Positions 225 to 63,413 of a stretch of DNA of 64,000 bases are shown here, one piece after another. The translations under genes and the position numbers were made by a program. The stretch is taken from contig JBHGNT010000012.1 of assembly GCA_043228905.1 (NCBI GenBank), forward strand, positions 13,516,001-13,580,000, written 5' to 3'. The DNA is from Azolla caroliniana. Its lineage: Eukaryota; Plantae; Polypodiophyta. A model generated the notes under the pieces. That model did not search any database. It was not told the origin of the DNA and was given only the letters and a program-made list of their open reading frames with translations. Each line of letters begins with the position of its first letter. Position 1 is the first letter of the stretch.

Positions 225-2480
225 TCAGACATTAGTTTTGGTTGGTCTTCTAGCTTGCAGACAACTCTCATCGGAGTCCCATTCCTTTTTTGCATGCCTC
301 CAAAGAGCTCCATCCTTAAGGAAATACTTGTATGCCTTCTTCCGAATTCGATGGAAGCCTTTCGTCGACCATGATACATCTTTTTGGAGAGAACTCAAGT
401 ATTTCCCGATCTCCACGACTTCGCCTTCGTAGTCCTCTTCTATGAAAGTAGTCAACACCCGAGCATAGGAACTTGCAAAGAAATCCAAGCCAACATCATC
501 TTCATCAGAATGTCGATCATCTTCTCCGTCGTATCTCGCTCGTGATAGCATGTCTACAACGACATTACGCTTCCCAGCTACATGACCGATCTCCGGGTTG
601 AGTGATTTGATATATGCAATCCAACGCAACATGGCAATATCCGGTGTATTACAACCAGATATCATACCCAAATTTGGTAGGCAATCAGTCTCAATTATGA
701 CTTCTGCTCCAATAAGGTAATCATGATCAGATTTGATTGCCGAGACGATCCCCCATAGCTCCCTCTTCACTTGGGCATACCTTCTTTGCCTGTCACTTAA
801 CACTTTCGCGCCAAACCGAATTGCATATCGGTTGCAATCTTCATCTTCTTGGTTGATAACCCATCCAATTCTGATTGGACTAGTATCCACAGTCACAAAA
901 ATGGGCTTGCCGTATGAATAGTCCGCTTTCCGTAATGCAGGTGCCTCCATCAATAATTTCTTCAGCCTTCGGATGACGATTGTATGCTCGCTCGTCCATT
1001 CGAACATCCGCTTCTTCTTTAGTAGACCATATAATGGCTCAGCAATGTGGGCGTAGTGTGGAATCAAAATATGATAAAACGCACATGCTCCAAGGAACCT
1101 TCGAACCTCCATTTGGGTTACACATTCTTCTTTCATGTCTTGGATTGCATTCACCTTGGATGGTGAAGGCTTCCGACCGTATGCTCCACACAAGTGACCT
1201 ACCACCAGGATCTCCGGTTGCCCGAATGCGGATTTTTCTCCCGAAAATGTCAAATTCGCATCTTCGAGCCTTTGGAGCACCTTCCCGCAATCTTTCATAT
1301 GATCCATGACAAACTTTCTACATCCATCCTTATCTTTTGATTCATCCTTCTCTTCATCCGAACATCCTTTTATCGGAATATCATCTAAGAATGGCATCGT
1401 GATATCCGGGATGCAATCCTTCAAGACCTTGTTGATGGCATTCACCATATGAGCCACCGAGTTCGTTGCGCCTTGAGGTAAGGTACACATCCGCATCAAC
1501 CCGATTGGAGTTCTCATGGTTGTAATGTCACGACTGTCGACCGCCAACTAGAATTGATAGTAGCCAGAGTAGAGATCGCCGATGGAGTAGATGGACCGGC
1601 CCGCAAACGCCTCGGAAAATTCATCCACACTCGGACCGATTCCAGCATTCCGAATTGTCACCTTGTTGACGGGTTGAAGATCTTGAATGAATCGCAACGA
1701 TCCATTCTTCTTTGGCTCCGTGAACCACCTATTAGAATAAGGAGCATTCGACGGTTCTAGAATTCCCATCCTAACCTTCTCCTTTAAGAGCTCGATCAGC
1801 TTCGGTAGGTGTGCTCTCGGAACCGGTATCGGTTTCAAATTCCAAGGCACATGCGGCACCGTGAAGATCACCATCGGTTATACCGTCCTTGGATTAGCAC
1901 ACCCGATTTCTTGTGGGAAAAACGTGAAAGCCTTCCCATGTCTTTCAAGCATTCCACGAAACATCCGCTCCTCTTCAGGGAGGAGGAAATCCTCCCTTCC
2001 AACTCGTAGCTTTCCCTTCGTCTCTTCCGTGAAGATGTGACCAATTGTATTTGGGTTCCTTAAGCTTGGATCTTTTGCAACTTCCTTCATCTTTTGCCAA
2101 CTATCTTCCGGTAGCGGAACTGCAACTGGCTTGATCTTCCTATCCATGGTTTTATATTTTGTGTTGACTTCGGCTTCCTCTATCAAGATGCCTCAATGAT
2201 ATTCATCGATGATAGTATACATGTTGACGGAGTTAACCGAAATCACATGTTGATGGTGAGGATAGCTCAAATCCACGACTTCCTCGATTTCGCCGATGGT
2301 GTCATTAAATGAGGCTTCCTCCAGAATATATGACACGAATTCTTCCTCTTTGATTATGCTTTCTTCTTTCAGCACCTCCTCGAAGTCTTGTATCTGACAC
2401 TTTTCCTTCTTGTTGAGTAGTCTAAGTTTGCATGCGCCGCCAGGTGTGACGCATGTTGCTTCTCCTTGCAATCCACGCAC
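225..2480 (-). pseudogene. Element 1 pol: reverse transcriptase and RNase H, broken by in-frame stops
   Basis: ORFs 2193..2480, 1878..2186, 1548..1874 and 225..1547 share one frame; motifs LPQGATNS, FLDD, VTVDTS, ELWGIV, ETDC. Confidence 0.93.
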
Positions 2481-2545
2481 TTTGCTTCCTTGTGGGGACT
2501 TATGATTGCTCGGACTAGTTGTGCCCCATGCTTCAATAGTCCGCT

Positions 2546-4762
2546 TTAAAAACCTGAGGATTCGTCTCCAAGGCTATCTCGGTTCCTTTCATGATTAGCT
2601 CGCACTGTCAGGAATTGAACGGATCTTTTACTATCAAGACTCTTGACGCGCGCGAAGGCTGCTCCATTATCGAACACCTTGGTCTCCATCCGGGACGATG
2701 TTATATATGGTTGTCCTAGGATGACGGGATGTGAAGCCGAGTCTTGCACGAAGAAGTGTTGATCAATCTCTACATCCCCGATCGTGACTTTAACGTTGGG
2801 GCAAGCTCCGTACAAGTCCTCCATAGCCTTCGTCGCCGCTCGAATCTTCCATCCGTGCTTTGTATTAATCGGCCATCTTCCTTTCTTGTAGAACTCGGTC
2901 GACATGAGGTTGATCTCTGAGCCATGGTCAATCAAAGCGACCACGGTCTCTTTCTTCTCCCCAATCTTCACCGGTGTCTCCGTTGTCGCTCTTGCCCAAT
3001 GAGGCCGCGAGTAATGGCTATCCGCCACCACTTCTTCTTCTTCCTCCTCTTCCGATCTTGCCATGGTTATGGCACTTGTTTTCACCTCCTCTTCATCAGA
3101 TTGTTGCCACTTCCTTTTAATAAGGTCCACGATGGTATCATGGAACTCCTTCTTTGTGATCCCAAGTAGCTCTCTCAAGGTAAGGTCGACATGACTATCT
3201 AAAACCTTCTCCTCAAGGACCTTCCGCAAGTTAGTTGTTTGTTCTATGTCCGACCTTAGCTTGTAAGTCAGTGCCACTCGTTCTTTTCCTTTCTTCGTTG
3301 ATTCTTCGACTTCCATCTGAGCAGGTTGGCTCGATCCACCAGGCTTCATGTTTCTTTCACCAATCTCTTTTCTTGGGATAGGTTGGGGTGGCCCTTCTTT
3401 CCCTCCGTTCCTTGTGTTAGGTCGCTTTGATGTGCCATCTTCTTCACCGGTTCTCTTCCTCTTCTCTTCGACAAGGGCTTCATAGGTGTCACACACAACC
3501 TCCGCAAAGCTTGTGTTTTCGTCGATTGGATCTGACCATCTGGTACCTCGTCGCACGTTTCGGTCAGCAAGTTTTAGATCCTCGGAATTGATTTTGCCTT
3601 TTTCTTCGCACTCGAAGACCGTTGGCCAAAACCCAACTCCTGGCTTGATCATTTTAAAATTCTCTTTTCCAACTCGTATCCCAGCCGAAGCGGCATAGTG
3701 CATAGCCTCCACATGCCTTGCATCTTCTTCTTCTACAATCTTTTTCAGCCCACCTCTTCTGAAATTCACTCGTAGTGGCTTCCGGGTCTCGCTCGAGTGA
3801 ATCATGTTGCCGTCCAAATAGACGACATTCTTGCGGATCGCATCTTGCAAGTCAACACATTCCCTTCGTGAGTGTTCAAAGCTATCGCACCACACACATC
3901 TATACGCTTCTTTTCCCTTGGGCCCGCGTCAACGTAAGTTGGCTAACGATACCGCTTCAAACTTCTTGGAGAGCTCTTCGATTATAGACTCCACCATTGC
4001 TTTCTTATCGAAATTGTTGAACGGCTTGTTAGACTCGATCGTAAGAGGTGCCTTCCTCCACTATTGTGGATTCTCCATATCAGTTTCCTCTTGCCGTTGT
4101 TGACGCTTATCAAGACGGCTACAAGCCTTCTTCACTACCGCCCAGTCCGCTACCAAGCCACTAGGTCGTGTTTCATCCTCCAAAAAGTTACCCAATTCAT
4201 GCCGATCTTTCACATCCACTGCCTTCAAGAATAGTAGGACTTTATCTCCATCAAGAACTTGTTGATCAACACTCGGAATTCGGTTATACTTCTGGTCGAA
4301 TTCGGCATATACTCCAGATGCACACATATTCTTTCCTTTCTTCTCAATCCAAGACATCAGCGTATGTTGAGTCATCTGTGATGCGTCTTCAAGCATGTAT
4401 TCAGCGAGAAGCGCCTTTTCGAACTCCGCCCAAGTTGCATGCTCGTTTTGAATCTCCATGACGTGCTCGCGGATCCCTGGTTCCATCACACGTTTGAAGC
4501 CAGAAATTTGTTTGAGATCATTGACATCCCTTTGTTGCATCTCATTCCGATAGGTAGCAAGAAAATCTATGATGTTCTTGCCACTAAATTGTCCGGCTAT
4601 CTCAACCGTACGATCAACAGCTTTGTCGATTAGAGCTTCTCGATCTCTCACCTTCAGCATGTATTCCACTACGGACACCATGCCTTTCGTTAATTCCTCT
4701 CCTTGAGTTCCACTTGTGGAAGCCATTGTTGCACTTGATATCCTCCCTACCGCCTCTTTCAC
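2546..4762 (-). pseudogene. Element 1 gag and aspartic protease
   Basis: gag ORF 4061..4762; knuckle-like CxxCxxxxHxxxxC at start of 2546..3895; protease motif ALIDHGSEINLM and ILGQPY. Confidence 0.9.
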
Positions 4763-7525: not shown

Positions 7526-7913
7526 TGTCATGATATGGCAAGATTCGAACCCATGACTTTATGTTACATGGGTCGAGCCCTTGCCATTAGACTATACATT
7601 GTAATACGAAGGATATTACTTTCATTTATTATTTCACTATAGAAAATTGATGTATATTCCAGATATCTCTAGAACATTCTAGAAACTTCAAGAGTACTCT
7701 TGAAATTACTATATAAGGAGGCACAAGGAATTATTTCGAACCAAATCGGTTCAACGCCAGTCTTAAGCCTCCGAGCTATCCTTGTATATTCTTTCTACAT
7801 AATATATCTTTTGTCATCATCATTCTCTCTCTCTCTCTCTCTCAAGTGTTCTACACCCTCTTTTCCTCTTAGTACCAATCTTCATCTCTTCTATCTCAGT
7901 ACTATTCCTGACA
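7526..7913 (+). repeat. 5' LTR of chromovirus A
   Basis: TGTCA...TGACA ends; TATA box at 7710; high similarity to 33704..33970; right end inferred because the partner LTR is truncated. Confidence 0.8.
7531..7600 (-). other. Degenerate tRNA-like segment (Pol III A/B boxes) inside LTR A
   Basis: Minus strand reads TAGTCTAATGG (A box) ... AAGTC ATGGGTTCGAATC (B box); anticodon arm not intact. Confidence 0.65.
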
Positions 7914-8029: not shown

Positions 8030-9500
8030 AGAATATCAATCCGTTTTCCCGGAGTTGCAATTCTTGAAAGAGAAGTTTCTCGTATTGGAACAAGAAAATC
8101 AATGATTGTCGGGGGATCTTCAACAAATCTCCTTAGAGAAGCAGAAAACGCAACAATAACATGGGGAACTAGTGTTACGTGTGCAACAGCTCAAAGCGAC
8201 CATTGTAGCATTGCAACAAGAAGGACCAAGTATGCAAGGGATTCATAAAGAACCCAAGATCGGCCTTCCTATGAAATTCGATGGAACGTGATCACGGTTT
8301 AGAGGATTTCTTAATCAGGTACGATTATTCATTCAAATGCATCCTTTCCGATATCCCACCAATGCATCACAAGTGAGTCTAGTAGGCACGTTGTTAAGTA
8401 GCTCAGCTTTGGCATGGTTCGTTCCATTGTTAGAAAAGGAATCTCCATTACTAAACAATTTTGAAGAGTTTATAATTAAGTTTAAAGCCTCTTTTGGAGA
8501 TATTAATAGCATCAGGACAACAATCAACAAAATCCAACAATTACGTCAAGGTGACCGTCCAACCTCTGCATACGTTGTAGATTTCCTTCTACTCACCTCC
8601 GATATCCCCTGGGATGACCAAGCATTAATGGAGCAATTTCAATATGGCCTACATACCAATGTCAAGGATTTACTCTTGACCTTCCCCGAAAAACCAAAGT
8701 CATTGATAGAAACAATCAGTCACGTAGTACGATGCGATAACCACCTCTTTGAACGACGTTCGGAACGGCGTTGTAGCAAAGCCTTTCCCAAAGGAGTCAT
8801 TTAATACATCTCCAACAAATACTCCGACTCCAATGGAAATCGACATGACACATCGTCGTGGACCACTATTATAGATCACAGTACTAATGTAAGCTTAAGA
8901 TAAGGATAATGAAAAGATAGATAGAAAGGAGAAAGAGAAAGAAGGGTGCCGATCCACCCGACCACCCCCGAGCGAAGGGATCGAGACGGACTCGAGCCTC
9001 GATCGGCGTCCCATACCACCGCCGTGGCGTCGAGTCGTACCTGGTGCTGGCGCGCTCGCTACAAGAGTTGACCCACCACACGAGCAGAGTCTCGATGTAG
9101 TCAAAAGATGATCAAATGAGGGTAGCTAGGCCTCTTATTTATAGCGATACCCAAGGCCCCCAGGCAAGTTCACACTTGACCTAATGGTTGTCTCAATCCC
9201 GAGGATTAAAAGTAATCCTCCCCTTCTTTACACTCTCATTTAACCCTCACACTTATCCACGTGTATAGAATACTACGGTAAATTCTTACCACGGGATATT
9301 ATATGGTCATGCCCGTAACAACCACTAACGGAAGAAGAAAAGCAGCGACGCCGGCCAAATTAGTTATGTCTTTATTGTGGTGGAACAGGGCATATTGCAG
9401 TGAACTATCTAAAACCGAGTCTATTTCTCTTGGTGTGTCTGATAGTCCTAATAGCCCAAGCCTTTCAAACAAATTTGAAATCCTTAGTCAACTAAGAGAA
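8030..9500 (+). pseudogene. Chromovirus A gag (Retrotrans_gag type with zinc knuckle)
   Basis: PMKFDG, ALAWF, LRQG, RGPLTEEEKQRR and LYCGGTGH motifs; split by insert 8869..9320. Confidence 0.85.
8869..9320 (-). mobile_element. Truncated B-family LTR with filler DNA, flanked by 7-bp duplication ACCACTA
   Basis: Similar to 9550..9997; ACCACTA at 8862..8868 and 9321..9327; gag frame resumes after it. Confidence 0.85.
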
Positions 9501-13543: not shown

Positions 13544-16500
13544 AACACCTTTGCATTCACAAGTGGAAGGATTGCGCATTCCACTTATAGATTCCTTTTA
13601 TAATCTTGCGATTTTAGAAAATTTCCAAAAACTTGATACACTAGTATCACATGTTTTAAATAGCATGTAAATTTTGCTAATTTTTTGAGATTTAACAAAT
13701 TTCAAAATGATAATTTCTAGAATTGAATAGTTTAGGGATAATGTTTAAATGTTGATGGTTTGCAGATATGAAATGTAGTTAACTTAAAGAAAATCACAAT
13801 TATGGTCAACTCAAGGCACAAGTTAAGATTAATGGTTTCACCGTCTTGAGAAGATTAAGGTTACATCTATTGTTAGACTTGAAAATGTTTTAAGTATAAA
13901 AGGTAATATTGCAATCCTTAATGTCATCATCTATAAATTAGTGGTCATTAACATCCATAAATTCACAACTCAAGAAATGTAGACAATATTTATAAACAAT
14001 TTTCATAAATCCACAACTCCTAAAATGTAGACGATATTCATAAATTGTCAAACTTTAGATGTGAACATTAATATATCAATTTGAACATAACACATAGTTA
14101 TCAAGGTATCTACAATGTTATAATCTCCTTCCTTATAAGAATTCCCCTTCAAAATTTGTGAAGTAAATGGCATTTGCAAAGTTCAATTACCATCAACACA
14201 ATTATTAATGGTTTTCTTCTAATAAATGAAGCACATATTTACCATAAGTTATCTTGTTGTGCAACATACATCTTTAAAAAACCTCTTTTATTTGAAAAAC
14301 AACAAGAGTTTTAAACATGAACATGATATGTTGTATTAAATTGACATAAAAAATAGAGTTTTCATCATAACTCAATACAATATATTGAATTCATGTTCAA
14401 AGTTTTTTTACCGGATTTAAAAAAATAATAATAATAATAAATTAAGCTTGAGTTCATAGAAAAACCAGATTTTTCATCACAATTCAATACAATGTATCGA
14501 GTTCATGTTTAAAGTAATTTTTTCTAATTTTTAAAAAAACATTTTCAATTTGTTTCAAATTTTTTTATTTTTTTTCAAATTTTTTATTTTTATTTTTTAT
14601 TTTTTATGGAAAATATAATAATTTTAAACATGAACTCGATACATTGTATCGACTTGTGATAAAAACTCTGGTTTTTTCATCACTTATTAAAGCTCCAAAA
14701 CAAAATTCTAAGACAGAGACGAAATTAGTACTAAGAGAGAAATATTAGTATTAAGAAGAATTTAAGGTGTAGAACACTTGAGAAAAGAAGAGAGAGAGAG
14801 TGTGAGAGAGAGAGAGAGGGACTGAGAGGGAATGATGATGACATGAGTTAATCTACAGCGTATCGAGTTCATGCGTATCGAGTTCATGTTGAAAAGCTAA
14901 CTTTTGTACATGAACTCGATACGCCTTTTCAACATGAACTTGATACGGCGTATCGAGTTCATGTTGAAAAGCTAACTTTTTTACATGAACTCGATACGGC
15001 GTATCGAGTTCATGTTTAAAGTTTTATTTCGGATTTTTTTTTTAAATAATTACATTTTTTCCTATTTTATTTTGGTATTTTGTTTTTTTTTCTAAAAAAC
15101 TTTAAGGTTTAATAAGTGATGAAAATAATATTTCATGTATTACAATGTATGGTCTAATGGTCAAGAGCTTGACCCATGTAAAGTTTTATTTCGGATTTTT
15201 TTAAAAAAAAAATTACATTTTTTCCTATTTTATTTTTGTATTTTGTTTTTTTTCTCTAAAAAACTTTAAGCTTTAATAAGTGATAAAAATAATATTTCAT
15301 GTATTACAATGTATGGTCTAATGGTCAAGAGCTTGACCCATGTAAAGTTTTATTTCGGATTTTTTTTTTAAATAATTACATTTTTTCCTATTTTATTTTG
15401 GTATTTTGTTTTTTTCTGAAAAACTTTAAGCTTTAATAAGTGATGAAAATAATATTTTATGTATTACAATGTATGGTCTAATGGTCAAGAGCTTGACCCA
15501 TGTAGCATAAGGTTATGTGTTCAAGTCCTACCATATCATGACATGAACTAAGCTAACTTTTTTACATGAACTCGATACGCCTTTTCAACATGACCTCGAT
15601 ACGTCGTATCGAGTTCATGTTGAAAAGCTAACTTTTTTACATGAACCCGATACGGCGTATCGAGTTCATGTTTAAAGTTTTATTTCGGATTTTTTTTTAA
15701 AAATAATTACATTTTTTCCTATTTTATTATGGTGTTTTGTTTTTTCTCTAAAAAGAAATTGAGCTTTAATAAGTGATAAAAATAATATTTTATGTATTAA
15801 AATGTATGGTCTAATGGTCAAGAGCTTGACCCATGTAACATAAGGTCATGGGTTTGAGTCCTACCATATCATGACATGAAAAGTTTAATTTTGGATTTTT
15901 TTTTTTAAATAATTACATTTTTTTCTATTTTATTTTGGTATTTTGTTTTTTTTTCTAAAACAAAATTGAGCTTTAATAAGTGATGAAAAAACCAAAGCTT
16001 TTATCACAAGTCGATACAATGTATCAAATTGATGTTTAAAAAATAAAACAAAATCAATAAAAAACTATAAAAAATTGAAAAAAACAAAATTGAAAACAAT
16101 TAGAAAAATTACATTAAGCATGAACTCAATACATTATATCGAATTGTGATGAAAATTATGGTTTTCTAGATGAACTCAAGCACAATTTATTATTATTATT
16201 ATTATTTAAATCCAGTAAAAGAAACTTTGAGCAAGAATTCAATACATTGTATGGAATTATGATGAAAACTCTATTTTTTACATCAACTCGATATAACATA
16301 TCGACTTTATGTTTAAAATCTTGTTGTTTTTGAAATAAAAGAGGTTTTTTAAACATGAACTTGAATCGTACTAAAATGTTTGTTTTAACAAGAGAAAAAG
16401 ATGCATATCGATAGTGCAAACAAGTATGTTGTACAACAAGATACTTTATGGTGAACATGTGCATCATTGATTAACAAAAAACTATTAATAATTGTGTTGA

Positions 16501-17402
16501 TGGTAATTGAACCTTACAAATGCCATTTACATGGTCCATAAAGTGTTTGCGTGGTTCTTAATCACTACTTAATGTTAATCTTTATAGTTGGAACGAAGGA
16601 TTACAACACAAGTATAACTCAGATGACAAGGAAACTTGCAAGAACTCAAGATGGGGATATTAATAGCTACACTTGTAGATGGCCATGACCTAGGGTACCA
16701 ATTCTGCATTGGTAAAGTTTTGGACGTGATGATGTATTAAACGTTTGTAATACATCTATCATTGACATTAATGAGGTGGATATCATTATGTATGACTTTA
16801 CACAAACAGAAGTTGGATGTATAAGGACAACAATGATATGCATAATAAAAGAGATATTAGCAAGTCTAGAAGATATCTCAGATTGAAGGCGAAGAAGATT
16901 TATTGCACAAAATTTGGAGATACCATTTGGTGAACACAATGATTTGATTGGTACATGGGAAGATGAGGAGGAAGAGTCACAATTGTATATTATTTATAGT
17001 AGTGATTCTCATGAAAAGAATCATGATAGTCATGCAAATAACTCCCAAATGTATTTGTTGTGCAACTATATGCAACAAATTTAGACAACATTTTATCGAA
17101 TGGAATAAAAACGTCCATTGTTTTGAAATATTCTACTTTGATTTCTTTAAGATCTAAAAACTTATTAGTTGTCATTTTTCTTTAAAAATCCACAAAGTTA
17201 CTTTTCATATTTTACCCAAATTTGGCATTTTTCAATTTTACCAAATGGTGAAATTTTCAACTTTTTCATCAAGTTTTGGAGAACATGTGATACTAGTATC
17301 AAGATGTTTTGTGAAATGGCAAAAAAAACCCCAAAATCAAACGGAATATTCCTTATCCTTCCACTTGTGCGCGATCCTTCCACTTGTGAACGCAAACGTG
17401 TT
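13544..17402. mobile_element. Non-autonomous TIR DNA transposon, 4-bp TSD CTTT, superfamily unresolved
   Basis: TIR AACAC(C/G)TTTGC(A/G)TTCACAAGTGGAAGGAT; subterminal inverted CTTGATA..CTAGTATCACATGT; CTTT at 13540..13543 and 17403..17406; AT-rich; excision restores the host ORF. Confidence 0.85.
14163..16530. repeat. Foldback structure: about 500-bp inverted arms around palindromes and about 165-bp tandem repeats
   Basis: 14163..14690 is the reverse complement of about 15970..16530; palindrome CATGAACTCGATACG-G-CGTATCGAGTTCATG; tandem units from about 15015. Confidence 0.8.
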
Positions 17403-29699: not shown

Positions 29700-32600
29700 T
29701 CTTAGCTCAAGTAGTGGTTCGTACTAAAAGTACTGGACCTCCAGTACATGTCTTAGCACTATTAGATTCCGGAGCCAAGTCTTGCTTCATGGATAGGAAT
29801 CTTTCTCAAGCTCATCATAAGAAAACTTTCTTGCCCAGCATCTATAGTAGTTATTGATGGTCGTCCCATTGCTTCCGGAAAAATCATAGAGGAGTTAAAG
29901 ACGATTCAAGTTGTCCTAGATAACTTGGTGTGTGTAGTATCATTTAATATAATTAGTAGTCCAGATGATCCAATTGTCTTGGGGTTACCGTGGTTCAAAT
30001 TACATAACGCAGACATAGATTGGAGAACAAGAGAAATCCGGTATCGACAAATCCGAGGATGTACTCATAAGGACACAAGGAAGCAATGTTTGTCTTCGCG
30101 GTATCAGTAAAACCTTCCAACACTACTAAAGAGGAATCCCCAGTTCAACTTCTAAAGAAGTATCGTCAGTATGCCGATGTGTTCGATAAGGTACAAGCCA
30201 ATACGCTTCCTCACCACCGACCGTATGATTGCCCCATCGATTTACAACCGGGAAAAGAGCTACCATGGGAACCAATCTACAATTTGTCACCAACCGAGCT
30301 AGAAGTCCTTCGAGCCTATATAGAGGAGAATTTGGCAAACGGTTTCATTCGACATTCGAAATCTCCAGTCAGCGCACCCGTTTTCTTCGTCAAGAAAAAG
30401 GATGGATCACTTCGTCTCGTCGTTGACTACCACGGCTTGATTAAGGTCACCATCAGGAATAGGTATGCACTTCCCCTTATCTCAAGTCTTTTAGAACAGT
30501 GTTGCCCGCCGGAATCCTAACCGACGGACAGAAGCGCAGAAGTATTATAATATAGTAAAGCATTAAGAAACGAATGTAACGGTTCACGCAGGAAGCGTGA
30601 ACGGCTAAAAACCCTGTGTATATAAAGGGCAGAAATCCTCTATAAGAGGTAGCGTGTAACTTTGAGTGCAAGACGTTTTTCTAATAGAATCCTATCTTCT
30701 CTGACCTCTGTGTATATCTGTGTCTATCTGCGTGACAATCCATTGTTACTCTACTACGTTCTGTTTAAATCGTAAGTGTATGTAATCGTAGGTGCGTGTA
30801 CTAGTGCACGTCCTAAGGAGTTCGGTTGTAGTCGTCTCCCTTAGTCGCTACTAGGATACAAGGTGGTATCCCATTACTCCTTACGCGAAGATAATTCCTT
30901 GTAACACGGTCACCTTGAGGTCTACCTCGAAGGACTAAGCGTAGACAATGTTCCTAATCGGTAACAAACAGATCAATGGTGCAAGGTTCTTCACAAAGAT
31001 CGACTTATGAGGAGCATATAACCTCGTACGGATCCGACCAAGAGATGAATGGAAGACCGCATTCCGCACCAGCTATGGGCACTTCGAGTATACAGTCATG
31101 TCATTTGGTCTCACTAATGCACCAACAGTCTTCCAACACATGGCAAATGATATATTCCGAGATCTCTTGGATGTTTGTTTGATCATCTATTTGGATGATC
31201 TACTGGTTTATTCGAAGACCCAAGAAGAGCATGATTGTTATGTATTGTTAGTACTAAAATGGCTTTGAGAACATGGTATTTATGCAAAACTAGAATAATT
31301 TAGCTTCGAGTGCAACTAGGTGGAATTTTTGGGCTATGTCATCTCCTCAGAAGGCATCTCTATAGATCTAGATAAGGTCAAAACTGTGGTAGAGTGGCAG
31401 ACTCCACGTTCGTTGCGAGATGTGCAATGCTTTTTAGGCTTTCGAATTTCTACTGCAAGTTTATACAGGATTACTCAAAGCTTATTTTGCCACTCACACA
31501 GCTTACTAAGAAGGGGGAGTCGTTTGTTTGGTCTAAAGTAGTGGACATGGCTTTTGAGAGTCTTAAGAAGGCATTTACATCAGCTCCTATTCTAGCTCAT
31601 GTTGATCCGGCAAAATCATTTATCATTGAGGCGCTTTTGAGAGTCTTAAGAAGGCATTTACATCAGCTCCTATTCTAGCTCATGTTGATCCGGCAAAACC
31701 ATTCATCATTGAGGTAGACGCGTCGGATTTCGCCTTGGGTAGCATTCTTTCACAACAAGGCGATGATGAAAAGCTACATCCTGTGGCTTTCCACTCACGC
31801 AAGTTTAACGCCGCCGAAATCAACTATGAAATTCACGATAAAGAGCTATTAGCAATAGTGGACTCTTTTACGCAATGGAGGCCTTTTCTAGAGGGATCTT
31901 CTCATCAAGTCACCATATTCAGTGATCACAAAAATCTTGCCTGCTTCTAGAATGTTCGTCTATTAAATCGACGTCAAGGTCGGTGGGCCCAATCCCTCAC
32001 TTGTTTCGACTTCAAATTTACATATCATCCTAGAAAGCAACTAGGGAAGCCAACATTCAATAACCAAAAGCTAGTAATCCTGGGACCAGTACGACTACAA
32101 GCAACACGGGTTTTCGATATGCCATTGGATTCCCACATTATCAATACCATACGTGAGGAATTGAAGACAGATGTTTTCGCTCAAGCCATTTTAGCACAAA
32201 TTGACCCGTCTCAGGCATCTTGTCCACTATTGCAACAACTAGGTACAGATTATCAACAATTCGAATGTCATGATGGATTACTATTCTTTAAGAGGCTCTT
32301 GTATGTTCCTAATGGTTCTTGTCGCCTTCAAGTAGTCCAAAATTGTCATGACACATATACAGTTGGGCCTTTTGGTAGTACTAAAACATTGGATTTAGTA
32401 CAACGATCATTCTGGTGGCCCCATATGTGCCAATTTGTCGAACATTATGTTCAGACATGTGATACATGTTGCAAAGCAAAGATGCGAGGACATCATCCAT
32501 ATGGTTTATTGGAACCATTACCAATTCCAAGCAAGCCTTGGCAATCCATTGCTCTAGATTTCATCACAGATCTTCCGATTTCTAATGGATTCGATGCGAT

Positions 32601-33600
32601 CTTAACAATAGTAGATCGATATATGAATAGGGCCCATTTCCTACCATGTACTAAGGAAATCACTAGTGAAGAAACTACTGAAACTGTCATGCGTGAGGTA
32701 TGTCGGCATCATGGTCTCCCTGATAGTATCATCAGCGACCGTGGACCTCAGTTCGTCTCGAAATTCTGGAAGCACCTCTTCAAAATGCTCAAGCTCACTT
32801 GTAACCTCTTGTGCTCTTACCATCTGCAAACAGATGGACAAGCAGAATGAACGAATCAAACGTTGGAACAGTATCTTTCGTGTTTACTAAGCTATCACCA
32901 AGATGACTGGATGGATATTCTCCACTTCGCCGAATTTGCATATAATAACTCTTTCCATTCGTTGACTAAGGTTACACCATTTTTTGCTTATATGGGCTAT
33001 TATCCTCGGTGGTGTGTATTCGAAACTCTGGAGTTACCCACAAATCCTTGTGTAGAGGATCGTTTGGAGCAACTACGCAAGATACAGGTGGATTTATCTA
33101 CTCATTTACAACAAGCTCAACAAACACACAAGGATTATGCGGATTGTCATTGGCTTCCATCCAATTTTAACACTGCAAATCGGGTATGGCTATTACGACG
33201 ACACATCAAGACTACTCGCCCATGCGATAAATTGGATTATTGGCGATTAGGTCCTTTCCGTATTATCGGAAAAATTAATGATGTCGCTTTTCGTCTCGAT
33301 CTACCATCGCAACTACGAATACATCCGGTATTTCATAGTTGTCTTCTAGAACCCTATCAAGATAGCACTATCCCAAGTCGTATCAAACCACCTCCACCCC
33401 CGATCGAACTTGAAGATGGACCTGAGTACGAGGTTGCCGCCATCCTTGATTCAAAGATTCTTCGCAACAAGCTCTACTACTTGGTCGATTGGCTAGGATA
33501 TAGTCCCAACGAGCGTACTTGGGAACCAATAGAGAATGTGTCGACTGGCTAGGATATAGTCCCAACGAGCGTACTTGGGAACCAATAGAGAATGTGACCA
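29700..33600 (+). pseudogene. Chromovirus A pol: PR, RT, RH, integrase, chromodomain
   Basis: LLDSGA; [16 protein letters not shown]; YLDD; [16 protein letters not shown]; IALDFITDLP; EYEVAAILDS..YLVDWLGY..TWEP. Confidence 0.93.
30500..30966 (+). mobile_element. Solo LTR of C family
   Basis: Reverse-complement homolog of 10572..11040; TG...CA ends; TSD AACAG; TATATAAA about 120 bp in. Confidence 0.9.
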
Positions 33601-33703
33601 ATGCTTGTGCTCTTCTTGAAGGCTTCCATCGACAATATCCAAACAAATCGGGGTTCCCAATTCAAAACGACTTGTAACACTCGTCATTTTAAAGAGAGGA
33701 TAG

Positions 33704-33970
33704 TGTTATGATATGGCAAGATTCGAACCCATCACCTTATGTTACATGGGTCGAGCCCTTACCATTAGCCTATACATTATAATACAAAAGATATTATTTT
33801 CATTTATTATTTCACTATAGAAAATTGATGTATATTCCAGATTTCTCTAGAACATTCTAGAAACTAGGAGTACTCTTGAAAACACTATATGAGGCACAAG
33901 GCTTTATTTCGAACCAAATCGGTTCAACGCCAGTTTTAAGCCTCCTAGCTATCCTTGTATATTCTTTCTA
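33704..33970 (+). repeat. 3' LTR of chromovirus A, truncated
   Basis: Follows PPT; matches 7526..7797 then similarity stops. Confidence 0.85.
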
Positions 33971-36960: not shown

Positions 36961-39876
36961 TTACTCATTTTGTTTGCGAAGCTCCTTTACTCTCATAGAT
37001 TCAATCTTTTCTGCATCTTCTTGCCTACCAGAAGCTGTATAAATATTAGCCATAAGTACATACGCTGATGCAAGATTAGTATCCAGCTGTACAGCCTCGT
37101 TAAATGCTATTTCCCCAATGTTCACGTTTGCCCACTTGCTACAAGCACCCAATAATGCAAGCCAAACTGAAGGTTCCTCACATGATGGCATTGAATTAAT
37201 TACTGACATTGCCTTGTCAAATTGACCCGAACACCCAAAAATCACAACCATGCAAGAATGATGCTCTGTCTTTGGTGCTATGCCATACTCTTTACTCATA
37301 TCCTCATAATACAGTTGGGCAATGTCTGATTTGCCTGCGTGCCGGCATGCGTTCAAAACACTTAGGAAAGTGACCTCGTTAGGTGAGAAACCTTCCCTTC
37401 GCATGCGTTCGAAACAGATTATCGCCTCCTGCCAATGCCCCTGTTCAGCATATCCTGCAATTAGTGCAGACCAAGAAACTACATCCCGAACATGAAGTTC
37501 TTCATGCACTTGCCGTGCCTTTGACAAAAACCCACATTTGGCAAACATATCTACCAAAGCAGTTCCTAGCATAATACTTTTCTCCAATAAACCAACATTA
37601 ATAATCTCAGTGTGAATTTGTTTTCCCTTGTCAATTGCTCCTATGCTACCACAAGCTTTCAGAACACAAGTAAAGGTGATCTCATCTGGAGTGAGACCCT
37701 CTTTCTGCATCTGTACAAAACATTTCAGTGCCTCGTGACTTTGACCCCCTGATGCATACCCTGAAATTACTGCATTCCATGAGACAACATTTCGAACAGG
37801 AAAATCATTAAGAACTTCCAAGGCTTTAGAAGGTGCCCCACATTTTGCATACATATCCACCAAAGCATTGCAAAGAGTGATATCCTTCCCGAACAAGCTT
37901 CTATCCACCAACTCATCATGGATTTTCATACCCTTGTCAATAGCTTGTATGCTGCTACAGGCCTTCAAAACCGAAATAAGGGTGACCTCGTTAGGAGAGA
38001 AACCTTCTCTTTGCATCTCTTCAAAACAATTCAGCGCTTCGTGACCTAGCCCCTCATCAGCATAGCCTGCGATTAATGCAGACCAGGAGACAACATCTCG
38101 AAGAGGGAGCTTTTCAAACACTTCCTGTGCTTTTGCAAGTGCACCACATTTGGCATACATATTCACCAAAGAAGTACCAATGACTCTGTCTTTCTTTAGC
38201 AAACCCTTTGCTACTATCTGTTCATGAATCTCTTTTCCCTTGTCAATAGCCCTTGTGTTGCCACAGGCCTTCAACACACAAGCAAATGTCACCTCATCTG
38301 GAGAAAGACCCTCTTGTTGTATGCTTGCAAAACAATTTATAGCTTCATTACTTTGCTCATGTTGCACATACCCTGCCATCAGAGAATTCCAGGAGACTAT
38401 ATTTCGAGTAGGAAGTTCTTCGAGTGTTTTCCGTGCTTTCACAAGCACACCACATTTGGCATACATATCCACTAAAGCATTGCCCAACATGATGTTTTTA
38501 CCAAGAATGCCCTTCTGGACAATCTCTTCATGAATTTGTTTGCCCTTGTCAATGGCTCCAACGCTTCCGCAAGCCTTAAGAATGCAAACAAAGGTCACTT
38601 CGTTTGGAGATATGCCCTCCCTTTGCATCCTTCTGAAACAGTCAATGGCTTCAAGGCACTGGCCTTCTTGAGCATATCCTGCAATAAGTGTAGACCAAGA
38701 AACTACGTCCCGGACAGGAAGTGCATCAAGCACTAGTTGTGCCTTTGCATGCATACCAAATTTGACATACATATCCACCAAAGAATTTCCAAGAATTGTT
38801 GCAGTTTTCTTCAACAATCCTCGATTAACAATCTCATTGTGAATTTGCTTTCCTTTATCCATAGACCCTGTTGTACCACAAGCCTTCAAAATGCATGCAA
38901 ATGTCACCTCATTTGGTGAAACACCTTCCCTTTGCATCTGCGTGAAACAGTTTAGTGCTTCGTGACACTGCCCTGCTTGAATGTATCCTGCAATCAGCGC
39001 TGACCAAGATACTACACTTCGATCTGGAATTGCTTTGAGCACTCGTTCTGCTTCTGAAAACATGCCACATTTGGCATACATGTCCACAAGGGCATTGCTG
39101 AGTGCAACATGTTTGTCAAGCAAGTTCCTCTCAATGATCTCATCATGAATTTGTTTGCCCTTTTCAATGGCACTAACATTGCCACACGCCTTCAAAATAC
39201 AAACGAAGGTGACCTCATTTGGAGAGATACCTTCCCATTGCATCTGATAAAAACAATCGATCGCTTCATTACCCTGGCCAGCTTGAGCATACCCTGCAAT
39301 CAGTGCAGACCAAGAGATGACATTACGGACTGGAAGCTCTTCGAAAACATTCTGTGCTTTAGCAAGTAAACCACATTTTGCATACATATCCACTAAACCA
39401 TTTCCAACCATAACACTTTTTTCCACCATACCCTTTTGCAATATCTCGGCATGAAGCTTCTTGCCATTAGCAATGGCTCCTATGGAACCACAAGCCTTCA
39501 AGATGCAAATGTAGGTGACCACATCTGGCGATATTCCCTCTCTTTGCATCGTTTCCAAACACTCGACAGCTTCATGACCTAGTCCTTCTTGAGCATACCC
39601 TGAAATTAAAGCATTCCAACAGACAGAATCCCGAAAAGTAAGCTCTTCAAGGACATTTCGAGCTTTAGGGAGCTGGCCGCATTTTGCAAACAAATTGATT
39701 AGACTGCAAGCAATGTGAGGGCTTCTTTGGAGCAACCCCTGCTTCAGAATATGAGCATGGAGTTGAGAGCCTTTGCAAATATCCCTCGTCTCAGCCGAAT
39801 TCTTCAGTAACTGAAGAAGACTAGGTTCTATCTGACAAACTTGGGTCATCATGCCATTCACCTGCAACCCATTCAT
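36961..39876 (-). CDS. PLS-class pentatricopeptide repeat protein, E subclass (organellar RNA-editing factor-like), no DYW domain
   Basis: Intact intronless 971-aa ORF; eight P motifs (xxSWxALIxGY) in about 102-aa P-L-S triplets, then P2-L2-S2 (FLSVLNACRHAG), E1 (VWLALLGAC) and E2 (AYVLMANIY). Confidence 0.96.
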   Translation of the reverse strand: MNGLQVNGMMTQVCQIEPSLLQLLKNSAETRDICKGSQLHAHILKQGLLQRSPHIACSLINLFAKCGQLPKARNVLEELTFRDSVCWNALISGYAQEGLGHEAVECLETMQREGISPDVVTYICILKACGSIGAIANGKKLHAEILQKGMVEKSVMVGNGLVDMYAKCGLLAKAQNVFEELPVRNVISWSALIAGYAQAGQGNEAIDCFYQMQWEGISPNEVTFVCILKACGNVSAIEKGKQIHDEIIERNLLDKHVALSNALVDMYAKCGMFSEAERVLKAIPDRSVVSWSALIAGYIQAGQCHEALNCFTQMQREGVSPNEVTFACILKACGTTGSMDKGKQIHNEIVNRGLLKKTATILGNSLVDMYVKFGMHAKAQLVLDALPVRDVVSWSTLIAGYAQEGQCLEAIDCFRRMQREGISPNEVTFVCILKACGSVGAIDKGKQIHEEIVQKGILGKNIMLGNALVDMYAKCGVLVKARKTLEELPTRNIVSWNSLMAGYVQHEQSNEAINCFASIQQEGLSPDEVTFACVLKACGNTRAIDKGKEIHEQIVAKGLLKKDRVIGTSLVNMYAKCGALAKAQEVFEKLPLRDVVSWSALIAGYADEGLGHEALNCFEEMQREGFSPNEVTLISVLKACSSIQAIDKGMKIHDELVDRSLFGKDITLCNALVDMYAKCGAPSKALEVLNDFPVRNVVSWNAVISGYASGGQSHEALKCFVQMQKEGLTPDEITFTCVLKACGSIGAIDKGKQIHTEIINVGLLEKSIMLGTALVDMFAKCGFLSKARQVHEELHVRDVVSWSALIAGYAEQGHWQEAIICFERMRREGFSPNEVTFLSVLNACRHAGKSDIAQLYYEDMSKEYGIAPKTEHHSCMVVIFGCSGQFDKAMSVINSMPSCEEPSVWLALLGACSKWANVNIGEIAFNEAVQLDTNLASAYVLMANIYTASGRQEDAEKIESMRVKELRKQNE

Positions 39877-45120: not shown

Positions 45121-45191
45121 ATGGATGTAGCTCAACTGGTAAGGTTGCCCAATAAGACTAGAAGGTCATGGGTTCAACCCCCACCATTCGA
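45121..45191 (+). other. Degenerate tRNA-like segment inside LTR F, antisense to the element
   Basis: TAGCTCAACTGGTAAG A box, AGGTC variable loop, TGGG-TTCAACC-CCCA T arm, TGGATG/CATTCG acceptor-like pairing. Confidence 0.7.
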
Positions 45192-50235: not shown

Positions 50236-51173
50236 TGTCGTGCCTCTCGGCTCCGGATCGTTGTGTGAGTCGGGTGGGAACCACTGAGGTTTTGGACTAG
50301 GACAAAGAAGAATACAATATAAGGCTAGTTATAAATAGGTAGAAAGAGAAGTAAGAAATAAAACTTGTGAAACCCACATGTTTAGTGTATTTAATCAATA
50401 TTTAGATTGTAAGAAAGAGAATCTTTATGATAAACTCGTGAATCCCACGAATATATTAGATTGATCAATCCTTGTGAAATAATCAACAACATCATACATC
50501 TTTCTCTCCTCCTTATATAAGGATGGAAGAGGCTAAACATAGCTTCATGCTTTTTCTAAAGTGTTTATGCACACTAAATGTGCATGAGTTGCCTTTTACA
50601 CTATGCTTTTATTTCCTAAATATAGTGCTCATGCTCGCTAGATGTGCATGAGTAATTTTTTATTGGTGTACATTTTTCTTATAAATAAAGTATTCACGCA
50701 TTCTAAAAAAGCATGACTTACCTTTTAATAAAGGTAGGCGTAAATAAAGGTCTTATACGTATTAAATCTATATTTAAAACACTTAGGATAACTTAGTACA
50801 ATAGTAAGGTTGGGGTCTGTCTATGTGGAGATATAGGGTTCGAATTTTGCCCTATGCATGTAACAATCATTTCTTCTATTTATAAATTTGTCTCTTCATC
50901 CGGTCAGAGACTCTCACCGGCCTTCTTTATCCGGCTCTTGCCGGTTTTGCTTGATCCGATTCTTACCGGGTCTCCTTACCAGGTCCTCTTTGCCGGTTCC
51001 TCCTTCATTCGGTTCTCACCGGTTCTCCTTACTAGGTCCTCCTTACCGGTTCCTCCTTGTCCCATCCGGAGGAACAAAAATGCAATTTTCACGTAGTGTG
51101 CGAATTACACTACGACACTCTCCCCCTCCAAACCCGCACATCCTCTGGTATGTGCCGAAGTTCCCGATGCTCA

Positions 51174-54100
51174 TTATTCGCCTTCATCCGTAGCACTCTC
51201 CGATTCTCCCCTTATGTCGACTACGAGTTGAAGTTCACTTTCTTCGCTTTCCGCATCACCGCGATCTTTGTCCGGTTGCTCCTCGTTGTTGGTCTTGTCT
51301 AGGGTTACATAGGGTTCGTCGTCAGTCCACTTCTTGAATATCTTTACCCGTTTCCCTGCTATAGGCACTCGTAGTATTGTTCCATCCAACTCGGAAAGTC
51401 GGTAAGTTCCGTTGTCGAAAACTTTCCGAACCTCGTATGGCTTGAACCACCTTTTCGTGAACTTCCGTATCGTTGTATGTTGATGATCCAAACTACTATT
51501 ATAGACAATCACCCAATCTCCTTCTTCAATCTTCCGTGGTCCTAGTCGGTGCTTTGTGTCGAACATGCTTTTGTTCCGGAATCACGCTTCTTGTTGTTGA
51601 CGTGTTGCTTCCGCTATGGCTTCTGGTCTTCCCTCTAGTTGTCGTATCCAGACTGCTAGCAGTTCTTCCCGGTTCATCTCTTCCTTCCACGGTAGCACTG
51701 TCCATGTCGCGATCGTGGTTTCCGTCAGCATTACCGGTTCTTGTCTGGTCATAAGTTTTGTCGGCATATAACCGGTTATGGAGCTATGCGTCGTCCGATC
51801 CGCCCATAGTGCATACGGGAGCATATGCGGCCAATCCTTCACCCTTCCGTTGCATGCTTTGGCAAGTGCTTTGACGATCGGACTATGTCCTCGTTCGATT
51901 TTCCCGTTGGCCTCCGGATTGTATACCGTTGTTAGTGTTAACCGAACTCCATGTTTGGTAATGAATTCCCTAGCTTTATCAGAGTCGAGTTCTCCCCAAT
52001 CCGCAATCACTTGTCCTATGCACCCGTACCTACAAAACACCTCCTCCAAAAGAAATTGGCATACCGCAGAACACGTTTTCCGTCGTAGCGCCCGACCTTC
52101 TACTTGGTTTGTGAGATCTTCCCGAGCTAACACCAAGTACTTATTTTGTCTGATCCCGGTTGGCATGGCTACAATGTCGACCATCCATTTGAAGTTGATT
52201 GTTGGTGAGAATGTCGAATGTAACTCATCTCGGTGTCGAACTCCGGAGTAGATTTGACACTTCTCGCAGTTTTACGTGAGCTCCGCTATATCTTTGTACA
52301 TATTCTTCCACCAATATTTTTGTTTGATTTTCACAAAAGTTGCCCATGTTCCTCGATGTCCAGCCTAATCGGATTCGTGAAACTTGGACATTATCCGGTT
52401 TCGTTGCTCTTTCATCCTGACTACCCGAAGTGGTATGCCATCCGGTCTTTTTGGCTCCCTCCATATTAATCCATTTTTCAAGAAGAACTTTTGGACTTGC
52501 CTCTTCTTCCATTGGATCTCGGCTCTCTTCTCTTTATCATCCAATGGTTCCTCAATCTCTTGTAGCACCTTCCTGATCATCAAGCTTTCTCCCTCGTATT
52601 CTTCTTCTCGGAATTCTTAGATTATGTTTACTCGGCATATGTGCTCCGAAGCAAAGTAGTCTTCAAAAACTTCTTCATTATCGGATTCAGCTATGTCGTC
52701 TCCGAACTGAGCCCTTGATAGCATATCCGCTACCGCGTTGTCTTTTCCGGAGATGTGTCCTACGTCCGGGTTAAGTGACTTAACATATGCAATCCATCTT
52801 AGCATAGCCACATCCGGTATCGTGCAACACTGCATCATCCCGAGTATCGGAAGACAATCCATTTTGATCACTACTTCAGCTCCGATCAAATAATCTCGAT
52901 CCGATTTGATTGCTGACACGACTCCCCATAATTCTCTTTTGACTTGTGCATATCCGCGTTGCCTTTCGTTGAGAACCTTTGCTCCGAATCGGATCGGATA
53001 TTGCAACCTATCCGAGTCGGCTTGATTGATGACCCATCCGATCCCGGTTGGACTTGTATCAACCGTTACTATGATCGGTCGCTCATAGCTCGGCTTCTAA
53101 AGTGCTTTAGCCCTCCGTAGTGTTTTCTTGAGCTTCTTCATGGCTTTGGTGTGTTCCGGTTTCCATTTGAACTTCTTCCCCTTCTGCAATAAGTGATAGA
53201 GTGGGTCCGCAATATGTGCATAGTGCGGAATCCATATGTGATAAAATGCACAAGCTCCAAGAAACCTTCGGACTTCGGATTGTGACTCGCATACTTCTTT
53301 CATAGCTTGAATTGCATCGATCTTGGTTGGTAACGGTCTTCGGCCGTAGGGCCCACATAGATGTCCGACTACCAATATCTCTTCTTGCCCGAATGCCGAT
53401 TTCTCCCCGGAAAGTGTTAGGTGCACATCTTCTAACTTTCGAAGCACTTTCTCGCAATCACGAATATGGTCGACTACGAACTTTCGGCATCCCCGATCAT
53501 CCATAGTTTCATCTTTTTCTTCTACCGTGCATCCTTTCATCGGAATGTCATCTAGGAACGACATCGTTATCTCTGGAATGCAATCTCGAAGCACCTTGTT
53601 CATCGCGTTCATCATATGTGCAACCGAGTTTGTCGCTCCTTGTGGTAGTGTGCACATTCGGACTAATCCTATCAGTGTCCGCATGGTAGTGATGTCTCGG
53701 CTTTCCATGACTAGTTGGAATTGGTCATACCATGAGTATAGGTCTCCGATGGAGTATATCGCATGGCTGGCAAATGCTTCCGCAAATTCGTCCACTATCG
53801 GACCGACTCCGGAGTTCCGGATCGTGACCTTGTTCACCGGTTGCAAGTCATGGATAAATCAGAGTGACCCATTCTTCTTCGGAACCGTAAACCATCGATT
53901 TGAGTACAGAGCGTTTGATGGCTATAGAATCCCCATCGCCACCTTCTCCTTGAGCAAGTCGATGATTTTGGGAATATGCGCCCGCAGCACCGGAATCAGC
54001 TTCAGGTTCCATGGCACATGGTCAATCGTGAAGATCACCATCGGCTCCACTATCTTCGGATCAATGCACCTTATCTCCTTCAATGTGAATGCAAATGCTT

Positions 54101-63150: not shown

Positions 63151-63413
63151 GTTTCACATCAGGTTCACCAATTGTGTCGTGCCTTTCAGCTTCGGATCGT
63201 TGTGTGAGTTGGGTGGGAACCATTGAAATTTTGGACTAGGACAAAGAAGAATAGAATATAAGGCTAGTTATGAATAGGTAGAAAGAGAAGTCAGAAATAA
63301 AACTTGTGAATCCCACGTGTTTAGTGTATTTAATCAATATTTAGATTGTAAGAAAGAGAATTTTTATGATAAACTCGTGAATCATCGAATATATTAGATT
63401 GATCAATCCTTGT

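What the first reader, a model, noticed from the sequence alone, without database searches (positions are those of the whole stretch)
7526..7600. Antisense tRNA-derived Pol III module at the start of the chromovirus A LTR
Seen: the first 75 bp of both A LTRs (also about 33709..33778) read on the minus strand as A box TAG(T/G)CTAATGG ... B box GGTTCGAATC with tRNA-like spacing and a scrambled anticodon arm. Known: Cassandra TRIMs carry 5S-derived promoters in their LTRs, and I recall tRNA-derived LTR segments being reported for non-autonomous elements; TFIIIC boxes can act as insulators. Inference: a protein-coding chromovirus carries an outward-facing Pol III promoter or boundary in U3, possibly shielding it from silencing.
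Basis: partly seen in the sequence, partly recalled or inferred. Interest (0 to 1): 0.7.

Follow-up and report, generated by a model that had tools for sequence, protein, structure and literature searches.

The report
Outward tRNA promoter in chromovirus LTRs
A whole branch of protein-coding plant jumping genes keeps the two promoter boxes of a tRNA gene, back to front, at the outer edge of its terminal repeats while the DNA around them changes freely, which likely means the elements recruit the host's tRNA-gene factor TFIIIC, most plausibly as a fence against silencing.

Summary
Confirmed, and wider than reported. Both LTRs of a self-priming chromodomain Ty3/gypsy element (7526, 33704) carry an antisense A box and B box 32 nt apart. 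It is no tRNA: ARAGORN and Rfam give nothing and the cloverleaf model scores E 0.42. A sequence-only model built from host tRNAs ranks it first in the window (E 6.6e-5), and its six best hits are all LTR 5' ends. Among 25 divergent chromovirus LTR clusters, 20 have the antisense box pair in the first 130 nt, against 0 of 25 in sense and 0 of 23 in the next 130 nt. Boxes and spacing are kept; fold, anticodon arm and terminator are not. An unrelated non-chromovirus gypsy family has it too. Best reading: a TFIIIC-binding, tDNA-type element selected in transposing lineages, probably a chromatin barrier (0.5). Against this, inserted copies lose the boxes at the background rate, and binding and transcription are untested. 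Main rival: a Ty3-like tRNA-binding site in the genomic RNA. Closest known: Helenus TRIMs, which are non-autonomous. This scan earlier noted box-bearing LTRs in fungal genomes.

The parts
7526..7913 (+). 5' LTR of element A (388 bp, TG...CA)
   Evidence: ends fixed by genome copies that share the terminus and by PPT/flank change
7584..7594 (-). A box of the tRNA-derived module
7555..7559 (-). tRNA variable-loop motif (positions 44-48), one base off the AGGTY seen in most families
7542..7551 (-). B box, exact match to the core pattern, 16 nt from the LTR end
7535..7587 (.). family-specific long imperfect hairpin overlapping the module
   Evidence: z -4.8 and -4.6 on the two strands; not general across families
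7710..7716 (+). TATA box of the predicted Pol II promoter
   Evidence: sequence; kept in most copies shown
7743..7754 (+). predicted 5' end of genomic RNA that serves as self-primer
   Evidence: complementary to the PBS, 11 of 12 here, 12 of 12 for the PBS of L017
7916..7927 (+). self-priming PBS, 2 nt after the LTR end
8292..8804 (+). gag fragment (Retrotrans_gag, Ty3_capsid)
30338..31265 (+). reverse transcriptase fragments of element A, split by a solo LTR at 30499-30966
31951..33552 (+). integrase, SH3 and chromodomain (stop codon at 32848-32850); aromatic-cage residues present
33691..33703 (+). polypurine tract
33704..33970 (+). 3' LTR of element A, cut short by another insertion; 91.9% identical to the 5' LTR over 273 nt
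33720..33772 (-). A box (33772-33762) and B box (33729-33720) in the 3' LTR
45128..45180 (+). same module, antisense, in the 3' LTR of a different chromovirus family B (element on minus strand, LTR starts 45212)
   Evidence: (22.1 bits, E 0.0003)
50793..50845 (+). same module, antisense, in the 3' LTR of non-chromovirus gypsy family F (element on minus strand, LTR starts 50865)
   Evidence: E 0.0065
15805..15865 (+). module in a family-A-type LTR fragment (LTR nt 1-106) inside a foldback element
15473..15532 (+). second such fragment

Best explanation
The first 70 bases of this chromovirus LTR are a worn tRNA-gene promoter facing outward that many related families have kept, and it likely binds TFIIIC and so likely acts as a chromatin barrier between host flank and the element's own Pol II promoter. 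Shown: tRNA origin, antisense orientation, position at the U3 edge, conservation of boxes and spacing across families, loss of fold and terminator, self-priming PBS. Inferred: the B box anchors TFIIIC; the A box at fixed distance would place TFIIIB in the AT-rich U3 inside the LTR, upstream of the Pol II TATA box, keeping that stretch open. Inferred: because the 3' U3 is copied into both new LTRs, every new insertion gets the site at its outer 5' edge, and only copies that stay transcribed leave offspring, so selection acts on transposing lineages and not on dead copies. Any outward Pol III read-through would be a by-product.
For: Antisense A+B with at most 3 mismatches in 20 of 25 LTR clusters (<75% identity), 0 of 25 in sense, 0 of 23 in the next 130 nt, 14 of 500 shuffles; gap 33-34 in 14 of the 15 best. 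Independent of that pattern, a host-tRNA sequence model hits the LTR 5' end antisense at E<=0.5 in 17 of the 25 (one search read against LTR starts). Integrase-chromodomain identity to element A in these families runs from 44 to 85%. Pairwise identity among 19 representatives: B box 0.64, positions 44-48 0.67, D-loop end 0.56, against 0.30 anticodon arm, 0.30 and 0.33 acceptor strands, 0.34 upstream. The pattern is that of a promoter: T54 and T55 unchanged in 22 of 22, G53 19, A58 21, while 57, 59 and 60 vary as the consensus allows. Structure is not kept: median folding z -0.5, T-stem and acceptor pairing no better than swapped halves (270 and 104 of 1000). A family with long open pol frames keeps an exact B box 6 nt from the LTR end with a degenerate A box, like B-box-only ETC sites; tRNA genes and ETC sites are TFIIIC-dependent heterochromatin barriers (PMC12409998, passages).
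Against: No occupancy or chromatin data. In inserted copies the boxes decay at background rate: family A non-CpG departures B box 0.029, A box 0.052, rest of U3 0.039; B-box CpG 0.53 against 0.52 and 0.43; family B alike. So most copies were methylated through the box. Family F has the module without a chromodomain, and Selaginella SM-Tcn1 lacks it by eye (PMC2864245 supplement S3), so it is neither tied to chromodomains nor needed by all Tcn1 elements. 5 of 25 clusters have no good pair, and L217 has a decayed module beside a protein identical to L214. Conservation of positions 44-52, outside the core B box, is not explained by TFIIIC binding as I know it. Most clusters come from metagenome contigs of probably related hosts, so they are kin, not independent origins.
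Confidence: 0.5

Rival explanations
1. The module works in the genomic RNA, where it reads as the complement of tRNA T and D arms just after the PPT, and binds a host tRNA for packaging, dimerisation or circularisation, as the U3 half of the bipartite Ty3 primer site does.
For: Ty3 has such a U3 segment pairing with the T and D arms (PMC5371799, passages); Drosophila Gypsy has a second, 3' site (PMC1635307, abstract). Family A can pair 19 contiguous nt with host tRNA-Arg(TCG) if G-U is allowed; 32 of 74 departures from the nearest tRNA at 44-61 are G-U compatible against 11 reverse transitions. Explains conservation of 44-52.
Against: The element self-primes. No link to one tRNA: mean longest run 14.6 against 14.7 for column-shuffled modules, 196 of 300 (tRNA set incomplete, 20 anticodon labels, some pseudogenes). 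T54/T55 never become C (0 of 44) though G-U would allow it, while position 60 is C in 6 of 22. A58 is kept although it is normally methylated and cannot pair (recalled). A fixed tRNA-like gap is not needed for pairing.
Confidence: 0.17
2. The product matters: Pol III makes an outward or antisense small RNA (hairpin, miRNA-like or silencing decoy), as in foamy-virus U3.
For: Both boxes and spacing kept; AT-rich DNA upstream; strong hairpins in families A and B. Foamy viruses make Pol III miRNAs from U3 (PMC3993851, passages).
Against: Only 4 of 19 families fold with z<-2 on the antisense strand. No conserved terminator: a T4 run lies inside the LTR in 5 of 20 and none within 300 nt in 5 of 20. 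Transcripts from the 5' LTR would run into arbitrary host DNA.
Confidence: 0.14
3. TFIIIC or TFIIIB is recruited for another purpose: a landing pad for Pol III-targeting elements, or nuclear positioning of the element.
For: Same sequence evidence as the best explanation; earlier scan notes report such targeting in a fungal genome (unchecked).
Against: In 30 loci found with the module alone, none shows a foreign insertion at LTR nt 75-110; one tandem duplication breaks at nt 115. Nor do the 3 full family-A starts in a 400 kb sample.
Confidence: 0.11
4. Neutral relic of a tRNA or tRNA-headed SINE captured once in an ancestral LTR.
For: Background decay in inserted copies; a short two-headed tRNA-like repeat with a family-B-type head exists in the genome and could be a donor.
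Against: Boxes and spacing survive while spacer and flanks fall to about 0.3 identity and proteins to about 50%.
Confidence: 0.08

Closest known systems
Helenus / TRIMp3 (Kojima 2024, PMC10886601; parts 1-4 of 6 read, plus a term search)
   Same: tRNA-derived sequence in the LTR, conservation centred on boxes A and B, no working tRNA, His/Thr-like remnants.
   Different: Helenus is non-autonomous, 311-1263 bp, tRNA-primed, and the promoter is proposed to make the element's own RNA. Here the carriers encode gag-pol, self-prime, keep a Pol II TATA box, and the module points away from the element. The paper argues autonomous partners must use Pol II; it notes in passing that other Repbase LTRs resemble tRNA parts but does not analyse them, and does not state orientation.
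Cassandra TRIMs (as described in PMC10886601)
   Same: Pol III internal promoter in a plant LTR.
   Different: 5S-derived, non-coding, transcribes the element.
Tcn1 clade of chromoviruses, Tf1/Sushi group (PMC6317226 and PMC2864245, passages; supplement S3 of the latter read)
   Same: gag-RT-INT-chromodomain order, aromatic cage, self-priming, 5-bp target duplication (L018/L026, one mismatch).
   Different: No tRNA-like LTR segment in the passages seen; SM-Tcn1 lacks it by eye.
tDNA barriers and ETC (extra TFIIIC) sites (PMC12409998, passages; PMC2040200 and PMC8136502, search listing only)
   Same: A/B or B-only boxes next to silent chromatin.
   Different: Those are host loci or SINE copies; here the site would be carried by an autonomous element for its own benefit, and binding is untested.
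Ty3 bipartite primer-binding site (PMC5371799, passages)
   Same: U3 of a Ty3/gypsy genomic RNA complementary to tRNA T and D arms.
   Different: Ty3 pairs with its own primer tRNA; this element has no tRNA primer and matches no single tRNA.
Foamy-virus U3 Pol III miRNA cassettes (PMC3993851, passages)
   Same: Pol III boxes in U3 of an autonomous retroelement.
   Different: Defined hairpins with terminators and shown products; neither is conserved here.

Membership tests
Tcn1 / Tf1-Sushi chromovirus | Ty3/gypsy order with C-terminal chromodomain | tested here: met
Tcn1 / Tf1-Sushi chromovirus | aromatic-cage chromodomain | tested here: met
   Tyr, Trp, Tyr at the cage positions read by eye; positions recalled from HP1
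Tcn1 / Tf1-Sushi chromovirus | self-priming PBS instead of tRNA PBS | tested here: met
   (sequence complementarity only)
Tcn1 / Tf1-Sushi chromovirus | RT/INT placement with reference Tcn1 elements | not tested
Helenus / TRIMp3 | tRNA-derived A and B boxes in the LTR | tested here: met
Helenus / TRIMp3 | short, non-coding element | tested here: not met
   gag, RT, INT, chromodomain; LTR-to-LTR distance 6350 bp for L018/L026
Helenus / TRIMp3 | tRNA-type PBS | tested here: not met
   self-priming PBS
Helenus / TRIMp3 | Pol III promoter able to transcribe the element | tested here: not met
   module is antisense and exits the LTR after 16 nt
tRNA gene | cloverleaf fold | tested here: not met
type 2 Pol III promoter / tDNA barrier | A box, B box, tRNA-like spacing | tested here: met
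type 2 Pol III promoter / tDNA barrier | TFIIIC occupancy and barrier activity | not testable with these tools
   needs ChIP/CUT&Tag and reporter assays
type 2 Pol III promoter / tDNA barrier | Pol III transcript | tested here: inconclusive
   only poly(A) raw reads from a related organism, 17, 21 and 5 reads laid
Ty3-type 3' tRNA-binding site | U3 complement of T and D arms | tested here: met
   19-nt G-U-tolerant run with tRNA-Arg(TCG) for family A
Ty3-type 3' tRNA-binding site | match to the element's own primer tRNA | tested here: not met
   no tRNA primer; no link to one tRNA
foamy-virus-type Pol III small-RNA cassette | conserved hairpin with terminator | tested here: not met

The most novel reading that the evidence does not exclude
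Autonomous gypsy retrotransposons of at least two deep lineages have domesticated a tRNA-gene promoter as a portable, outward-facing TFIIIC barrier at the LTR edge, letting elements that land in silent chromatin keep their Pol II promoter open, and seeding thousands of TFIIIC sites through a plant genome.
Probability: 0.4. Interest if true: 0.82.

Novelty: new variant of a known kind. Interest (0 to 1): 0.64.

Why it matters
How chromodomain retrotransposons stay active after inserting into silent chromatin is open. A conserved TFIIIC site at the exact boundary between host DNA and the LTR promoter gives a concrete, mutable candidate. It would also be a plant example of TFIIIC acting as a barrier, extend tRNA-derived LTR modules from non-coding TRIMs to coding elements in the opposite orientation, and imply a large mobile pool of TFIIIC sites (1635 to 3246 first-look candidates for family A alone; rough counts). 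If the rival holds, a self-priming element would still bind tRNA through U3, which is also unexpected.

Tried and rejected
Functional tRNA: rejected. Chance motif: rejected. Module as primer for reverse transcription: rejected, the PBS matches the R region. Hairpin as the selected feature: strong in families A and B only. Single tRNA ancestor: not resolved; His, Thr, Arg and Ile score alike, Arg(TCG) best over 44-61 for many. Landing pad: no breakpoint cluster. Protection of inserted copies from methylation decay: not seen. Expression: laying three poly(A) runs and one contig set on the LTR and on L103 gave few reads, mostly 85-95% alike, no start or end pile-ups; uninformative for a short non-polyadenylated RNA. 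A+B scan of a 400 kb sample: 15 hits against 1-6 in 20 shuffles, several but not all traced to LTR starts. Rows dropped: of 80 metagenome loci 21 gave no usable 3' LTR and 2 (L208, L262) were dropped by eye as doubtful; conservation tables use 19 or 22 of 25 representatives chosen on box score, so box values there are partly circular, whereas the variable-loop motif (14 of 25 exact, chance 0.0016) and one search are not. The B-only label of L225 is probably chance. Viral contigs and prokaryote genomes were not scanned.

Full report
Observation. The minus strand at 7594-7542 and 33772-33720 holds an A box and a B box 32 nt apart. The first lies at the start of a 388-bp 5' LTR (7526-7913), the second at the start of a truncated 3' LTR (33704-33970), 91.9% identical over 273 nt. 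ARAGORN finds no tRNA in the window and Rfam no tRNA match at E<=10. A cloverleaf model from 12 host tRNAs scores the module at 11.6 bits, E 0.42, but the same alignment as a sequence-only model ranks it first, E 6.6e-5, and all six hits with E<=0.02 are LTR 5' ends. So it is tRNA-derived and no longer tRNA-shaped.

The element. Gag follows the 5' LTR; RT, integrase, SH3 and a chromodomain precede the PPT and 3' LTR, with other elements nested between. The PBS begins 2 nt after the LTR and is complementary to the LTR's own R region about 30 nt below the TATA box, 12 of 12 in L017. This is the self-priming arrangement predicted for Tcn1 chromoviruses of non-seed plants (PMC6317226, passages). 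The host is a land plant (PLS-E PPR gene; 523 Mb); non-seed is an inference from the element type. This copy is broken.

How far it extends. In the window, family B (another chromovirus) and family F carry the same antisense module at their LTR start. Family F has a tRNA-type PBS, no chromodomain hit, and an RT only 25-29% identical to the chromovirus RTs. Three other gypsy LTR families in the window gave no hit. A chromodomain search of the genome added more families; one with open frames near 1199 aa keeps an exact B box 6 nt from the LTR end and only a degenerate A box. A metagenome scan returned 80 related loci; 57 gave usable 3' LTRs, which with 6 own-genome LTRs form 25 clusters below 75% identity. 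Twenty of 25 have the antisense pair with at most 3 mismatches (one of them the B-only family), 0 of 25 in sense, 0 of 23 in the next 130 nt, 14 of 500 shuffles; 22 of 25 have a B box within one mismatch. The host-tRNA model finds 17 of the 25 at E<=0.5. Carriers are spread over the integrase tree, down to 47% identity (many inner branches weak). These hosts are probably related, so this shows long retention, not repeated origin; family F suggests a second capture or an LTR-end exchange.

What is conserved. Among 19 representatives, pairwise identity is 0.64 in the B box, 0.67 at the variable-loop positions, 0.56 at the D-loop end, and 0.30-0.34 in the anticodon arm, acceptor strands and upstream flank. 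The gap is 33-34 nt to G53 in 14 of the 15 best. T54 and T55 are invariant in 22 of 22 while 57, 59 and 60 vary as in promoters. The variable-loop motif, not part of my search pattern, is exact in 14 of 25 against a chance of 0.0016. Fold is not kept: median z -0.5, and stems pair no better than swapped halves. There is no common terminator. Selection is on linear motifs at fixed distance.

What speaks against protection. In 30 family A and 19 family B copies the boxes depart from their column majority as often as neighbouring U3, and the B-box CpG has changed in 53% of A copies, like other U3 CpGs. These are old copies, 90-93% alike; neutral decay after insertion is expected even if the site matters in active copies, but it shows that the box did not keep methylation out for good. 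RNA data were uninformative.

Mechanism. The B box is the high-affinity TFIIIC anchor and the A box sets TFIIIB position; tRNA genes and B-box-only ETC sites are TFIIIC-dependent barriers (PMC12409998, passages). Facing outward, the module would put TFIIIC on the outermost 70 bp and TFIIIB inside U3, upstream of the Pol II TATA box at LTR nt 185. That geometry fits a barrier or open-chromatin aid for the element's promoter (0.5; inferred). The Ty3-type rival arises because the genomic RNA reads as the complement of tRNA arms right after the PPT (PMC5371799). Family A can pair 19 nt with tRNA-Arg(TCG), but there is no link to one tRNA over shuffled columns, T54/T55 do not use the G-U freedom, and the element needs no tRNA primer (0.17). 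A functional Pol III RNA lacks a conserved fold or end (0.14). A landing pad, suggested by earlier scan notes on a fungal genome, shows no breakpoints in 30 loci (0.11). A neutral relic does not fit the between-family pattern (0.08).

Novelty. tRNA-derived LTR promoters are described for non-autonomous Helenus TRIMs (PMC10886601). Six literature searches returned no paper describing a conserved antisense A/B module in autonomous chromovirus LTRs; the library lacks most subscription papers and Repbase notes, and the Helenus paper mentions unanalysed tRNA-like LTRs, and its supplements were not read. Five .doc supplements of PMC2864245 could not be read. Earlier notes of this scan report box-bearing LTRs in fungal genomes and none on this sequence. 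Verdict: a real feature, a new variant of a known kind, with function untested.

Noticed in passing
L137:4436-4640 and 1585-1786; L022:1259-1459; L002:1822-2009: A roughly 200-nt repeat sitting in (CT)n tracts, including the CT tract of family A LTRs; in L137 it carries two convergent tRNA-like A/B heads, one close to the family B LTR module. L226:554-625 (+) and 841-904 (-) show a similar convergent pair. Possible donor or derivative of the module.
   Followed up: partly
window 14163-16530: Foldback (MITE-like) element with long terminal inverted repeats, enclosing family-A-type LTR fragments that all end at LTR nt 106 and 164-bp tandem repeats.
   Followed up: partly
window 50236-55462 and 63175-63413: Non-chromovirus gypsy family F: DUF4100 gag, 631-bp LTR, tRNA-type PBS, RT far from chromoviruses, interrupted by a copia element.
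   Followed up: partly
L031, L039, L048, L049; G000:C9:17.78-17.83 Mb and 19.69-19.71 Mb: Long tandem arrays of tRNA genes (Lys-TTT, Ile-TAT, Arg-TCT, Gly-GCC) with many decayed copies.
   Followed up: no
window 36961-39876 (-): Open 971-codon PLS-class PPR gene with E motif amid nested retroelements.
   Followed up: no
L101-L112: Chromovirus family with long open pol frames whose LTR begins with a perfect 8-bp hairpin enclosing the B box.
   Followed up: partly
window 33971 onward; L157; L150: The same insertion end interrupts family A and family F LTRs in three places, possibly a DNA transposon.
   Followed up: no
L309, L327: Further A/B-box modules followed by AT-rich simple repeats, not traced to an LTR start; possibly a tRNA-headed SINE.
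   Followed up: no
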